Origin: Escherichia coli
GTDB lineage: Bacteria; Pseudomonadota; Gammaproteobacteria; Enterobacterales; Enterobacteriaceae
Reading direction: 5' to 3' (one strand)
Length of the DNA: 64,000 nucleotides
Assembly: GCF_003334785.1 (NCBI RefSeq)
Contig: NZ_QOWV01000001.1
Numbering within the stretch: position 1 is the stretch's first letter; each line of letters opens with the position of its first letter. The translations under genes and the position numbers were made by a program. The notes under the pieces were generated by a model that was not told the origin of the DNA, searched no databases, and was given only the letters and a program-made list of their open reading frames with translations. Of the stretch, positions 11,675-14,063 are shown in pieces.

Positions 11675-13351
11675 CTAAGCAACATGTAGTTCATCGTTGG
11701 CGGAAGTGGCTGCTTTGCGCTCCTGCTCAATAGCTAGAGACTCTCTATATTCTTTCGCCTCTGCAAACATTGTCCAGTGGGCGTTGATGTTCATGTCTTC
11801 AATAACTGATTTGATTTCTTTTAAATTTACGTTAAAAAACTCTTTTCGTGAGTTAATTTTATTGACCTGCTTTTCGTTGAAAACTTTATGCAGATGGTTT
11901 TCTAATGATGGTGCATCATCACTATAAATCATCGCATGAACATCGAACGAAAAAGGAACACTAGCATCTCCGAGTTCACGAACACGATCAAGTGGTTCAA
12001 GGCGGCGTGTCATTCCAATTTTATATACATCTTCGCCAAATGAACCAATATTACTAATGATATAGACGTGGCCTGATCTGGTTTGTTGAGCCATAGAAAT
12101 AGCTCGTTGATTTTTAGCTTCAGCTTCTTCATATTTTAACTGTAGTTCAGCTATTTTTTGCTCTAAAGCTAAGCGTTGTTCTTCATTTGCAAGCATAAGT
12201 TCTTTCGTTGCTTTATTTATAGCTTGCTGAATAGCTTTTTCTTCTTTTTCAGCTTCTTTTATCGCTTTTTCATATTCTCTACGAGCTCTTTCCTCTTCAC
12301 GAAGCTGTTCTTTAATCCTTCTTTGCTCTTCTTTTTCTTCGAGCATAATTTCATTAACTGCTACACCCCATTTTAGCTCGTTGAGTCTTGCCTGAAGATA
12401 GATGTCACTTATTTTTGCGGACCTAAAGGCAGAGCCATTGTAATTTACTAGTTGAAATGCATCTTTTATTTCTTGGGAAAGTTTTCCAAAATTGTTGTGT
12501 TTGACTTTTGATAAAATACTGTCAACTCTTCCATTGAAGGCATCCAAAACAAAGTTTATGGCAGTATTACGCCTGTTTTGCTCAACATAATCACACGAAG
12601 CAGCTTTATTAGTTTTTATTAATGATTTGGTTAACTCTCTGGCTTTTTGTAATTCCTTGCCTGCATCTGTAAATTCATAATTTTCTGCCAGCTCATCAAG
12701 TACACTACGGTTAGGGATGATCCATTCATCACCATAACCTTCAATTTTATTTTTCATTGATTTTGCAACTGCTTCATATTTTTCTGCAAACTCTTTAGCT
12801 TCATATGCTGAACCAGCAATCTCCTTTGCTCTTTCTTCTGCATCAGAAATAATTTTTACTGCATTGTCATTAGCATTTGAGATTAGCTCATTTGCTTTAT
12901 TATTAGCATTATCAAGACGTTCTTTGGCTTTCAGGCGTGCATCGCGAGCGTCTTTGGTGATTGCTATAGCTTCGCTATTAGCGTTGCTTATTGTCATCTG
13001 AGCTTGATAATTTGCTTCGTTTACTGTTTTAGCCGCCTTAATTTGGGCTTCATCTATTTTTTGCTTGGCTATTGAGTCCGCATTTTTTATCTTATTCTCT
13101 GCATCCATTACTGCGCTGTGCAATTCTTCGTATTGCCACAATGGTGCTGCTCGCCCTTCAAGCTCTGATAATTCTCGTACGGTCTGTGCTAGTTTTTCTT
13201 GATTTTCAATCAGTTGGTTAGAAAGGGCTATGTTGTTAGCTGTCAGGTTATCTATAGCCGCTTTGTGTTTTTTACTTTGTTTAAATAATATTACAGCTAG
13301 AACAGGGGCGAGAAATGCTAATAAGAGTATAACGATGGCAAATGAATTCAT
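11675..13351 (-). CDS. Membrane-anchored coiled-coil protein with DUF4041-like core and C-terminal T5orf172/MUG113 (GIY-YIG-like) domain; prophage cargo, candidate defence gene
   Basis: 558-aa ORF; N-terminal hydrophobic helix then KQSKKHK; two long coiled-coil segments; C-terminal GHVYIISN...YKIGMTRR signature; visibly AT-rich DNA; AAGGA Shine-Dalgarno 7 nt upstream; start is 20 bp after the repressor stop. Domain assignment is by recall, not by HMM. Confidence 0.8.
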   Translation of the reverse strand: MNSFAIVILLLAFLAPVLAVILFKQSKKHKAAIDNLTANNIALSNQLIENQEKLAQTVRELSELEGRAAPLWQYEELHSAVMDAENKIKNADSIAKQKIDEAQIKAAKTVNEANYQAQMTISNANSEAIAITKDARDARLKAKERLDNANNKANELISNANDNAVKIISDAEERAKEIAGSAYEAKEFAEKYEAVAKSMKNKIEGYGDEWIIPNRSVLDELAENYEFTDAGKELQKARELTKSLIKTNKAASCDYVEQNRRNTAINFVLDAFNGRVDSILSKVKHNNFGKLSQEIKDAFQLVNYNGSAFRSAKISDIYLQARLNELKWGVAVNEIMLEEKEEQRRIKEQLREEERARREYEKAIKEAEKEEKAIQQAINKATKELMLANEEQRLALEQKIAELQLKYEEAEAKNQRAISMAQQTRSGHVYIISNIGSFGEDVYKIGMTRRLEPLDRVRELGDASVPFSFDVHAMIYSDDAPSLENHLHKVFNEKQVNKINSRKEFFNVNLKEIKSVIEDMNINAHWTMFAEAKEYRESLAIEQERKAATSANDELHVA

Positions 13352-13371
13352 TTTAAAATCCTTTTACTATA

Positions 13372-13968
13372 TTAATTCGAGACTATTGTACTTCTTATAC
13401 AAGCAACCACTTCAATATCAGAAAATGCACATTCAAAGCTATTCTCTGCTGTTGTAATTTTAATCATTCCTTTAGGAAGCCTTGTGATTTTTCGAATGGA
13501 ATAGGTTCCGTCGATATTGATTAACCAGTTTCCATCAAGTACTTCAGAAAATTTTTGATCACAAATGTATGTGACGAGTCCATCCTGAACAACAATTGGT
13601 GATGAAAGGTTTGCAGGAAGAAATGATGAATCGAAGACATATGAACCGTCTTCAATCATTTTGCCTGCGGCAAGGCGAAACTTAACAAGCTCTTCTGTAG
13701 CTGCTGTCAGCGAGCTTTGCTTAAGGCCTTGTCCGGTAGTTAACCATTTGAGGGAGGTTCCTGTTTCAAGAGCACATTGGATTATCCAGTCAGCAGGAAA
13801 TGTATCCCGCAAATACCTGTTCGCTAGTGTGCTTTTTGATACTTCCAAGTGATCAGCTAAAGCCTGTCGTGTCGTAAAGCCATAGGCTTCGACTAATCGC
13901 TCAATCGCAGCCTTACCACCTTTATTGGGATTTATTTTGATCTCACTTGGGTACTTTGATGTTGACAT
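13372..13968 (-). CDS. Phage 186 CI-like immunity repressor (HTH DNA-binding)
   Basis: 198-aa ORF (186 CI is about 192 aa); N-terminal HTH-like segment AIERLVEAYGFTTRQALADHLEVSKSTLANR; divergent from the Apl/Cox-like gene; AGGA Shine-Dalgarno upstream. Confidence 0.7.
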   Translation of the reverse strand: MSTSKYPSEIKINPNKGGKAAIERLVEAYGFTTRQALADHLEVSKSTLANRYLRDTFPADWIIQCALETGTSLKWLTTGQGLKQSSLTAATEELVKFRLAAGKMIEDGSYVFDSSFLPANLSSPIVVQDGLVTYICDQKFSEVLDGNWLINIDGTYSIRKITRLPKGMIKITTAENSFECAFSDIEVVACIRSTIVSN

Positions 13969-13997
13969 ATCTCTTTTGCGATCCTAGTATCAGTTTT

Positions 13998-14013
13998 GTA
14001 CCCAATTGGGTAC
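13998..14013. promoter_or_regulatory. Perfect 16-bp palindrome in the divergent repressor/cox promoter region (putative operator)
   Basis: gtacccaattgggtac; a related half-site cttgggtactt at 13946-13956 overlaps the repressor 5' end. Confidence 0.5.
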
Positions 14014-14063
14014 TTGTCACGATTACTACAGGCTCACCACAAGCCAATAGGAGATGTTGCATC

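What the first reader, a model, noticed from the sequence alone, without database searches (positions are those of the whole stretch)
13340..14063. Cargo gene is wired into the immunity operon: 20-bp gap after the repressor stop, own Shine-Dalgarno, no intervening terminator
The repressor stop (13372) and cargo start (13351) are separated by only 20 bp containing AAGGA. There is no hairpin between them, whereas a hairpin follows the cargo gene. Transcription from the lysogenic promoter in the 13969-14063 divergent region would therefore co-express repressor and cargo in every lysogen. This is the expression logic expected of a prophage-encoded exclusion or defence function, and it ties cargo expression to the immunity state.
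Basis: inference. Interest (0 to 1): 0.4.

Follow-up and report, generated by a model that had tools for sequence, protein, structure and literature searches.

The report
Anti-phage nuclease gene behind prophage repressor
A known type of anti-phage nuclease gene (SNIPE / PD-lambda-1) sits 20 bases behind the repressor gene of a 186-like prophage remnant in E. coli, placed to be made together with the repressor; this is a sound but fairly ordinary example of a prophage carrying a defence gene in its immunity operon.

Summary
The repressor stop (TAA, 13374-13372) and the cargo ATG (13351) are 20 nt apart. AAGGA lies 7 nt before the ATG. Nothing in the gap looks like a terminator, and a GC hairpin plus T-run follows the cargo.

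The cargo is a full-length homologue of SNIPE/PD-lambda-1, a membrane-anchored GIY-YIG nuclease that cuts siphovirus DNA during injection. The element is a 186-like prophage, here an ~11.7 kb deletion remnant.

By analogy with phage 186, cI and the cargo are probably read from a lysogenic promoter, pL. That promoter faces pR and partly overlaps the start of apl, so the arrangement is not a divergent promoter pair.

In about 180 related loci the cI-int interval holds more than 30 different cargo sets (Old, KAP NTPases, PADLOC candidates, unknowns). The first cargo gene nearly always starts within 50 nt of the cI stop.

The hairpin is not part of the cargo. It belongs to a conserved ~85-nt int leader that also carries a LexA-box-like site and promoter-like hexamers.

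Co-transcription is inferred, not shown, and a weak promoter-like site inside the cI 3' end cannot be excluded. The design principle and the hotspot are already described, so interest is modest.

The parts
13372..13968 (-). cI immunity repressor gene (198 aa), 186-CI type
   Evidence: ORF. PHROG 'transcriptional repressor' E = 6e-30. tblastn to CI of 186-like phages, including 32-35% identity to PSP3/HP1-type CI.
13352..13371 (-). 20-nt cI-cargo junction with Shine-Dalgarno AAGGA (13363-13359), 7 nt before the cargo ATG
   Evidence: Read directly from the sequence. No terminator-like site and no significant fold. Conserved in SNIPE-class relatives.
11675..13351 (-). Cargo: 558-aa SNIPE / PD-lambda-1 homologue. 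N-terminal TM helix (residues 5-23), long coiled coil, DUF4041 (267-322), GIY-YIG/T5orf172 nuclease (427-520).
   Evidence: PADLOC PD-Lambda-1 E = 2.4e-120. Pfam hits. 50% identity over 293 aa to the reference PD-lambda-1 of phage PhiR26_1, with catalytic E414 aligned to E484 here. Kyte-Doolittle mean 3.16 for residues 5-23. GC 0.34-0.40 against ~0.45-0.53 in the flanks.
13962..13990 (+). pR-like lytic promoter: TTGACA, 17 nt, TAGTAT. Its -35 overlaps the cI start codon.
   Evidence: Best promoter match in the region, 10 of 12. Position corresponds to annotated pR of 186.
13998..14013 (.). Perfect 16-bp palindrome GTACCCAATTGGGTAC at the predicted pR start: candidate CI operator. A related half-site lies at 13944-13954.
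   Evidence: the repeat finder. This is where immunity types diverge between cargo classes.
14054..14082 (-). pL-like lysogenic promoter: -35 TTGAAA (14082-14077), 17 nt, -10 CAACAT (14059-14054). It faces pR and overlaps the apl SD and start.
   Evidence: Relaxed scan. Same position relative to the apl ATG as annotated pL of 186. TTGAAA is invariant and the -10 is CAACAT, CAAGAT or CAATAT across all immunity types.
11593..11616 (-). GC hairpin AGCCCTC-N6-GAGGGCT plus T-run abutting the int ATG. Terminator-like; the 3' arm is the int Shine-Dalgarno.
   Evidence: All 14 distinct versions in relatives fold (-10.3 to -18.1 kcal/mol), with an A-T to T-A swap and G-U-compatible changes between the two main forms.
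11618..11647 (-). LexA-box-like site (11623-11642; plus strand AACTGTATATGTAACCAGTA) nested between promoter-like hexamers TTGATT (11647-11642) and TAAATT (11623-11618) on the int strand
   Evidence: Only CTG-N10-CAG site in the 64 kb with at least 13 of 20 matches; it scores 16 of 20, reached by 0 of 200 shuffles. CTG-N10-CAG is invariant in 28 distinct leaders chosen by Int identity alone. The only other site in the fuller prophage lies upstream of the 'SOS induction modulator' operon.
10540..11592 (-). Tyrosine integrase (350 aa)
   Evidence: PHROG integrase E = 6e-75. 54% identical to 186 Int.
14064..14827 (+). apl/cox (14064-14285) and cII (14318-14827): start of the lytic operon, opposite to cI
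   Evidence: PHROG Cox-like E = 1e-31 and CII-like E = 9e-57.
13385..13415 (-). Promoter-like match inside the cI 3' end (TTGAAG, 19 nt, TACAAT). Basis of the rival 'own promoter' reading.
   Evidence: Relaxed scan, 9 of 12 but with a 19-nt spacer. Not reported by the stricter scan. Retained in all SNIPE-class variants, but it lies in coding sequence.

Best explanation
The region is the lysogenic (immunity) operon of a 186-like Peduoviridae prophage, with a defence gene inserted between cI and int.

Proposed mechanism:
1. CI binds the palindromic operator at the pR start and shuts pR.
2. This frees the weaker, face-to-face promoter pL, which overlaps the start of apl, as in phage 186.
3. pL (and probably the CII-activated pE, during establishment) produces one mRNA: cI, a 20-nt spacer, then the cargo.
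4. Ribosomes start independently at the cargo's own AAGGA.
5. The mRNA mostly ends at, or is translationally closed by, the GC hairpin and U-run that abut the int start codon.

The cargo protein is a SNIPE homologue. [quoted passage not shown] There it should cut DNA of incoming siphoviruses during injection. SNIPE must be in place before infection and does not harm an induced resident prophage, so constitutive expression alongside the repressor suits it.

Shown here: coordinates, spacer, SD, absence of a terminator-like site, protein family, and recurrence of the layout in relatives.
Inferred: promoter use, co-transcription, termination, and the defence phenotype of this allele.
For: - Junction anatomy. 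No terminator or structure at the junction.
- Cargo identity: PADLOC PD-Lambda-1 E = 2e-120; Pfam DUF4041, T5orf172 and MUG113; 50% identity to reference PD-lambda-1 with the catalytic Glu conserved; TM helix followed by a KQSKKHK positive patch. RefSeq names identical genes 'SNIPE associated domain-containing protein'.
- SNIPE mechanism, constitutive expression and lack of effect on prophage induction: Saxton et al., bioRxiv 10.1101/2025.11.03.685801.
- Operon model: the 186 record annotates the cI-int lysogenic operon from pL, 'inhibited by convergent pR, activated by CI repression of pR', plus CII-activated pE. pR and pL matches sit at the equivalent positions here and are conserved across immunity types.
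- Comparative support: among loci with near-identical Int, 12 cargo classes start 2-80 nt after the cI stop. In 21 further classes the first gap is -13 to +50 nt in 18.
- Occupants of the slot include Old (E = 1e-234), KAP NTPases (PDC-S20), PDC-M18A, PDC-M11A and an OLD/AriA-like ATPase.
- The block cI-SNIPE-int occurs in 164 of 5426 complete E. coli genomes.
Against: - There are no transcript data. Promoters are consensus matches only: pL scores 8 of 12, and promoter-like hits in the region are not enriched over shuffles (4 found against 8.7 expected).
- A promoter-like site (TTGAAG, 19 nt, TACAAT) ends 34 nt upstream of the cargo ATG, inside cI.
- The reference SNIPE is an autonomous moron. 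It is transcribed opposite to its neighbours in a lambdoid prophage and works from its own cloned upstream region. The family therefore does not need a repressor operon.
- The N-terminal 264 residues are unrelated to the tested SNIPE, so target range and activity of this allele are unknown.
- The switch region aligns poorly with 186, so the pL assignment rests on position, not on sequence homology.
Confidence: 0.7

Rival explanations
1. The cargo is expressed mainly from its own promoter inside the 3' end of cI, as a self-contained moron. On this reading its closeness to cI reflects where insertions are tolerated, not co-regulation with immunity.
For: - TTGAAG, 19 nt, TACAAT at 13415-13385 scores 9 of 12 with a good -10 and is kept in all SNIPE-class variants.
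- The reference PD-lambda-1 is an autonomous unit on the opposite strand to its neighbours. It defends when cloned with only its own flanks, 62 and 282 bp, from a 'native promoter'.
- The cargo region is AT-rich, which favours spurious or real promoters.
Against: - The 19-nt spacer is poor for sigma-70, and the stricter scan does not report the site.
- The motif lies in coding sequence, so its conservation says little.
- The same 0-50-nt abutment to the cI stop is seen for about 30 unrelated cargo sets, which would each need their own promoter inside different cI alleles.
- An internal promoter would add to read-through from pL, not prevent it, because there is no terminator.
Confidence: 0.2
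2. The gene is an inactive leftover of a decayed prophage. It is neither expressed nor functional in this strain.
For: The prophage here has lost about 22 kb. gpA is fused to the tape-measure gene, so selection for phage functions has ceased.
Against: - cI, the junction, the cargo ORF and int are intact and 99.9% identical over 4.5 kb to the more complete prophage record ON470620.1.
- The catalytic Glu and all domains are present.
- The block is found in 164 complete genomes.
Confidence: 0.06
3. The cargo is a chromosome-segregation or SMC-like ATPase, as annotated in phage records ON470620.1 and OM835953.1, and serves the phage's own biology.
For: Deposited annotations say 'chromosome segregation ATPase'. 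There are weak coiled-coil hits to DivIVA/Wag31.
Against: - No ATPase domain was found.
- The coiled-coil hits are far below the curated cut-off (22 bits against 260).
- The strong specific hits are to PD-Lambda-1, DUF4041 and the GIY-YIG family.
Confidence: 0.02

Closest known systems
Phage lambda cI-rexA-rexB operon (PRM/PRE)
   Same: [quoted passage not shown]
   Different: The phage family, the repressor and the promoter logic all differ: PRM is activated directly by CI, whereas here pL is presumably relieved from convergent pR interference. Rex is an abortive-infection type system, while SNIPE gives direct defence by cutting entering DNA.
Phage 186 lysogenic operon (pL/pE: cI-int-orf69)
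   Same: It shares a homologous CI, Apl/Cox, CII and Int, the same gene order and strand, and candidate face-to-face pR/pL at equivalent positions.
   Different: In 186 (and SopEPhi, Fels-2, Cartapus) cI abuts or overlaps int, and accessory genes lie after int. Here 1.78 kb (cargo plus an ~85-nt structured leader) separates cI from int, and int has its own LexA-box-like and promoter-like elements.
SNIPE / PD-lambda-1 of E. coli ECOR26 (prophage PhiR26_1)
   Same: The architecture matches: TM, coiled coil, DUF4041, GIY-YIG. Identity is 50% over the C-terminal 293 aa and the catalytic Glu is conserved.
   Different: The reference is 500 aa, lies in a lambdoid prophage between ren and the rha side, is on the opposite strand to its neighbours and has its own promoter. 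The N-terminal 264 aa here are unrelated and longer. That is the region the authors propose as a specificity 'adapter'.
Known P2-like defence hotspots, including the cI-int hotspot of Vibrio K139-like phages
   Same: - Rousset et al. [quoted passage not shown] - From my own knowledge, K139 glo, an exclusion gene, lies in that operon.
   Different: Those reports are at gene-neighbourhood resolution. They do not describe the enterobacterial slot's fixed boundaries (cI stop on one side, conserved TGTATG / LexA-box / hairpin int leader on the other) or the SNIPE occupant.

Membership tests
SNIPE / PD-lambda-1 defence system | Significant match to the family profile | tested here: met
   PADLOC PDLC03976 E = 2.4e-120, covering profile positions 36-481 of 491.
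SNIPE / PD-lambda-1 defence system | Central DUF4041 domain | tested here: met
   Pfam PF13250 E = 3e-12, residues 267-322.
SNIPE / PD-lambda-1 defence system | C-terminal GIY-YIG-type nuclease with the catalytic glutamate (E414 in the reference) | tested here: met
   Pfam T5orf172 E = 8e-17 and MUG113 E = 2e-19. In the BLASTP alignment, reference APSLE(414)KKLH aligns with APSLE(484)NHLH.
SNIPE / PD-lambda-1 defence system | N-terminal membrane anchor, N-out / C-in | tested here: met
   Residues 5-23, AIVILLLAFLAPVLAVILF, have mean hydropathy 3.16 and are followed by KQSKKHK. The topology itself is inferred from the positive-inside rule, not predicted with a dedicated tool.
SNIPE / PD-lambda-1 defence system | Protects against siphoviruses by cutting DNA during injection | not testable with these tools
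   This needs plaque assays and labelled-DNA injection assays. The N-terminal 264 aa differ from the tested protein.
186-type lysogenic (immunity) operon | 186-type CI, with Apl/Cox and CII on the opposite strand | tested here: met
   PHROG hits. tblastn to CI of 186-like phages.
186-type lysogenic (immunity) operon | Face-to-face pR and pL, with pL overlapping the apl start | tested here: inconclusive
   Consensus matches lie at the positional equivalents: pR 10 of 12 and pL 8 of 12. They are conserved across immunity types. There is no transcript evidence, and sequence alignment to 186 is weak.
186-type lysogenic (immunity) operon | cI directly coupled to int (overlapping or abutting) | tested here: not met
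   cI stop and int start are 1779 nt apart. In 186 they overlap.
Same-operon gene pair | Same strand, short spacer, own SD, no intervening terminator | tested here: met
Same-operon gene pair | A single transcript spans both genes | not testable with these tools
   No RNA data are available.
Intrinsic terminator (after the cargo) | GC-rich stem-loop followed by a U-run, conserved in relatives | tested here: met
   7-bp stem with 5 GC pairs, -13.3 kcal/mol, followed by 4-5 U. All 14 variants fold. Efficiency in vivo was not tested, and the U-run is short in this window.
LexA (SOS) operator | CTG-N10-CAG palindrome close to TACTGTATATATATACAGTA | tested here: met
   16 of 20 matches, unique in the 64 kb, reached by 0 of 200 shuffles. 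Invariant core in 28 leaders. The second site in the phage sits at the tum-like operon. LexA binding was not tested.

The most novel reading that the evidence does not exclude
In this widespread enterobacterial lineage of 186-like prophages, int has been uncoupled from cI. A conserved ~85-nt leader does three things:
- It ends or insulates the cI-cargo transcript with a hairpin that also hides the int ribosome-binding site.
- It carries a LexA-repressed int promoter.
- Transcripts from that promoter would start inside the hairpin's 5' arm and so escape both blocks.

This would make Int SOS-inducible, in step with the LexA-controlled tum-like antirepressor. It would also turn the cI-int interval into a plug-and-play expression slot, where any defence gene dropped behind cI is expressed with immunity without disturbing int.
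Probability: 0.35. Interest if true: 0.5.

Novelty: new member of a known kind. Interest (0 to 1): 0.3.

Why it matters
The result gives a concrete and testable case of how a pre-emptive defence protein is kept permanently expressed. SNIPE has to be in the membrane before a phage injects its DNA, and here it rides on the repressor transcript.

The comparison also maps a precise, sharply bounded cargo slot in 186-like prophages. About 20% of complete E. coli genomes match the int 5' end and the leader. The slot holds known systems alongside many uncharacterised proteins, and these are reasonable candidates for new defence genes.

The principle itself is textbook (lambda rexAB), the protein family is characterised, and the hotspot has been noted in recent surveys. 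The finding mainly confirms and refines existing knowledge.

Tried and rejected
- Terminator-like hit inside cI (13657-13629): rejected. It has an AT-rich stem and a poor T tail, and it would truncate cI itself.
- Direct alignment of the switch region with 186: too diverged to transfer promoters by homology. I used position relative to the apl ATG and conservation across immunity types instead.
- Rfam scan of 11300-14400: only a sub-threshold RyhB hit on the int leader (28.5 bits against a gathering score of 55, E = 0.019). I treat it as a resemblance in terminator shape.
- NCBIfam: no SNIPE-specific model, only a far-sub-threshold DivIVA/Wag31 coiled-coil hit.
- The count of structure pairs on alignment A2: not run. 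MAFFT puts the two hairpin forms out of register (loops of 6 and 5 nt), so each variant was folded separately.
- Literature searches for a LexA-controlled int in P2-like phages, and for co-transcription of defence genes with cI in 186-like phages, returned nothing.
- The motif-based IMG/VR scan required ACTG...CAGT. I used it only to widen the cargo survey, not as evidence that the box is conserved.
- Structure prediction and the large protein searches were not used, because profile evidence for the family was already decisive.
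Full report
**1. What is at the coordinates**

All genes discussed here are on the minus strand.
- A 198-aa ORF runs 13968-13372, with stop TAA at 13374-13372.
- A 558-aa ORF runs 13351-11675.
- A 350-aa ORF runs 11592-10540.
- The spacer between the first two is TATAGTAAAAGGATTTTAAA (20 nt), with AAGGA at 13363-13359, 7 nt before the ATG.

The consensus scan reports no terminator-like site in the spacer. The junction does not fold better than shuffled sequence (z = -0.15).

After the cargo gene there is a GC hairpin, AGCCCTC-TGATAT-GAGGGCT (11616-11597), followed by TTTT and the next ATG. 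The whole 96-nt spacer is strongly structured (z = -5.1).

**2. What the genes are**

PHROG profiles identify the neighbours:
- a transcriptional repressor (13372-13968);
- an integrase (10540-11592);
- a Cox/Apl-like excisionase-repressor (14064-14285, plus strand);
- a CII-like activator (14318-14827, plus strand).

The region is 99.9% identical to the Peduoviridae record vB_EcoM-813R9, and related to Klebsiella and Salmonella 186-like phages. It lies next to rcdA/ybjJ of E. coli.

The cargo is a SNIPE homologue, on this evidence:
- It matches PADLOC PD-Lambda-1 at E = 2.4e-120.
- It has Pfam DUF4041 plus T5orf172/MUG113, a GIY-YIG-type nuclease.
- RefSeq now names identical genes 'SNIPE associated domain-containing protein'.

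PD-lambda-1 was found in a functional screen (Vassallo et al., PMC9519451). It has since been characterised as SNIPE by Saxton et al. (bioRxiv 10.1101/2025.11.03.685801). Their findings, in brief:
- It is a constitutively expressed nuclease anchored in the inner membrane.
- It cuts siphovirus DNA during injection.
- It needs its TM, DUF4041 and catalytic E414.
- It does not affect an induced resident prophage.

The window protein compares with the reference as follows:
- It has an N-terminal hydrophobic helix (residues 5-23) followed by a basic patch.
- It is 50% identical to the reference over the C-terminal 293 residues.
- It keeps the catalytic glutamate (E484).
- Its first 264 residues are unrelated to the reference and longer. 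That is the region the authors regard as a variable adapter.

**3. Operon logic**

The richly annotated 186 record shows the following:
- cI overlaps int, and both are transcribed from pL.
- pL is 'inhibited by convergent pR' and 'activated by CI repression of pR'.
- The pL -10 lies just upstream of apl and its -35 lies inside apl.
- A CII-activated pE lies further right.

In the window:
- The best promoter match is a pR-like TTGACA, 17 nt, TAGTAT at 13962-13990.
- A perfect 16-bp palindrome at 13998-14013 sits at its predicted start.
- At exactly the 186-pL position relative to the apl ATG there is TTGAAA, 17 nt, CAACAT (14082-14054).
- These hexamers are kept in all immunity types examined.

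The genes are divergent, but the promoters are most likely face to face.

With no terminator between cI and the cargo, pL (and pE) transcripts should carry both genes. This is inference; no RNA data were available.

One alternative stays open. A relaxed scan finds TTGAAG, 19 nt, TACAAT at 13415-13385 inside cI. I cannot exclude it as an extra promoter.

**4. Comparative test of the wiring**

I collected 80 IMG/VR loci with near-identical Int and added annotated genomes. The cI-int interval falls into 13 classes:
- nothing in 186 itself;
- a 63-aa secreted-looking ORF (the most common occupant);
- SNIPE;
- an Old homologue (PADLOC E = 1e-234);
- KAP NTPases (PDC-S20);
- PDC-M18A and PDC-M11A candidates;
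- several unknown proteins.

In every class the first cargo gene starts 2-80 nt after the cI stop and has a purine-rich SD.

A motif-based scan added about 100 loci and 21 further interval classes. The first gap is -13 to +50 nt in 18 of the 21. The new classes include a diverged SNIPE allele that again has a 20-nt gap, more KAP NTPases, and an OLD/AriA-like ATPase.

The layout 'cI stop, a few bases, SD, defence gene' is therefore a general property of this slot. That is the strongest indirect support for expression with the repressor.

Two further facts:
- The cI-SNIPE-int block is present in 164 of 5426 complete E. coli genomes.
- The reference SNIPE is different: it is an autonomous, oppositely oriented moron in a lambdoid prophage.

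**5. The hairpin belongs to int, not to the cargo**

The ~85 nt upstream of int are conserved whatever the cargo. In order, this leader contains:
- a TGTATG boundary motif just after the cargo stop;
- a -35-like TTGACA, TTGACC or TTGATT;
- an invariant CTG-N10-CAG palindrome;
- a -10-like AAAAAT or TAAATT;
- the GC hairpin, in two forms (AGCCCTC/GAGGGCT and ATGCTCTC/GAGGGCAT) that differ by a compensatory A-T to T-A swap and by G-U-compatible changes;
- 4-7 T, then the ATG.

All 14 distinct versions of the hairpin fold. The 3' arm of the hairpin is the int Shine-Dalgarno (GAGGG).

The palindrome matches the LexA box consensus at 16 of 20 positions. It is the only such site in the 64 kb, and 0 of 200 shuffles reach its score. 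In the fuller prophage record the only other site lies upstream of the operon containing an 'SOS induction modulator', the position of the LexA-controlled tum promoter in 186-type phages.

A plausible but untested reading follows:
- Read-through transcripts from cI-cargo form the hairpin, so they terminate and the int SD is hidden.
- A LexA-repressed promoter starts inside the hairpin's 5' arm and yields translatable int mRNA after DNA damage.

How Int would be supplied during establishment of lysogeny is unresolved in this model.

For contrast, in 186, SopEPhi, Fels-2 and Cartapus cI abuts int and the accessory genes lie after int. PSP3 has a small gene between cI and int.

**6. State of the element in this window**

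ORF 16969-20073 fuses the N-terminal half of replication protein gpA (residues 2-434) to the C-terminal part of the tape-measure protein. Homology to complete phages jumps accordingly and ends near 22150.

The prophage is thus an ~11.7 kb remnant that cannot make particles. It still keeps cI, the cargo and int intact. 'Every lysogen' applies to the intact relatives. Here the unit behaves as a fixed chromosomal defence locus.

**7. Comparison with what is known, and novelty**

- Lambda: rexAB is transcribed with cI from PRM (PMC11077077).
- Rousset et al. 2022 noted a hotspot between cI and int in Vibrio K139-like P2 relatives (PMC9122126).
- Vassallo et al. described two other P2 hotspots.

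The finding is a new member of a known kind: a characterised defence family, in a recognised minor hotspot, with textbook expression logic.

What seems not to have been described, within the limits of my searches, is the fine structure of the slot. That fine structure is the cargo abutting the cI stop, together with the conserved LexA-box and hairpin int leader that bounds it.

**8. Verdict**

- Observation: confirmed.
- Interpretation: supported in substance, with corrections to promoter geometry, to the ownership of the hairpin, and to the state of the prophage.
- Co-transcription remains an inference. I put it at about 0.7; an internal promoter contributing substantially is about 0.2.
- Interest is modest (0.3). 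The most novel reading that remains open, SOS-controlled int insulated from a plug-and-play defence slot, would deserve about 0.5 if confirmed.

Noticed in passing
window 11618-11647: A LexA-box-like palindrome (plus strand AACTGTATATGTAACCAGTA, 16 of 20 to consensus) lies between promoter-like hexamers directly upstream of int. It is unique in the 64 kb and its core is invariant in 28 related leaders. The only other site in the fuller prophage is at the tum-like 'SOS induction modulator' operon. This suggests an SOS-controlled int promoter.
   Followed up: partly
window 16969-20073 (prophage about 10450-22150): A single ORF fuses the gpA replication endonuclease N-half (residues 2-434) to the tape-measure C-part (435-1034). 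The prophage has lost about 22 kb (head, lysis and most tail genes) and is a remnant of ~11.7 kb.
   Followed up: yes
window 11666-11671, and the same position in L002-L086: A conserved TGTATG (often ATGTATG, paired with a downstream CATACAT) lies immediately after the stop of whatever cargo occupies the slot. It marks the left boundary of cassette exchange. Its role (recombination junction, protein site or RNA stem) is unknown.
   Followed up: no
window 11590-11658 (-): Sub-threshold Rfam match of the int leader to RyhB sRNA: 28.5 bits against a gathering score of 55, E = 0.019, covering the full model length. It probably reflects only the terminator shape and a shared CACATTG...TTAGCC stretch.
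   Followed up: no
L005 (E. coli E2348/69, NC_011601.1 853585-856671) and L103: This slot variant carries a second, longer CI-like gene (307 aa, with a duplicated HTH region) followed by a KAP P-loop NTPase (PADLOC PDC-S20 E = 5e-78). It may be a two-gene sensor-effector pair.
   Followed up: partly
L006 (BL21, NC_012947.1) and 47 further IMG/VR loci: The commonest occupant of the cI-int slot is a 63-aa protein with a signal-peptide-like N-terminus and six cysteines (MLGKVFFVVLSCSLLLNPLTTYAKNYPCSGKKGG...). It has no PADLOC hit and its function is unknown.
   Followed up: no
L004, L045, L086, L095, L104, L181, L197 (slot cargo of 314-327 aa): A recurrent family of coiled-coil proteins with two TM helices and a conserved C-terminal motif (KKYTHE..RKDR.HALMFG.VFLQIYGST.TKEDA) occupies the slot in at least 7 sequence classes. 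It has no PADLOC hit and is a good candidate for an uncharacterised exclusion or defence protein.
   Followed up: no
window 11675-13351, protein residues 35-194: The N-terminal coiled coil gives weak DivIVA/Wag31-like hits (Pfam E = 0.03; NCBIfam 22 bits against a cut-off of 260). Saxton et al. report DivIVA-like N-termini mainly in SNIPE homologues that lack a TM helix, whereas this one has both features.
   Followed up: no
window 10459-10480: A palindromic terminator-like hairpin (AACCCGTTTACATAAATGGGTT plus T-run) lies just past the int stop, at about the attL core and downstream of host rcdA. It could serve both int and rcdA as a bidirectional terminator.
   Followed up: no
L088 (ON470620.1) 8786-10889 and 19714-20865: The fuller relative of this prophage also carries cargo in the two classical P2 hotspots. 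There is an ATPase plus a hypothetical gene in the tail-gene (Z/fun-type) site, and a Hypoth_Ymh-domain protein between gpA and the portal. One phage can thus hold three cargo loci.
   Followed up: no
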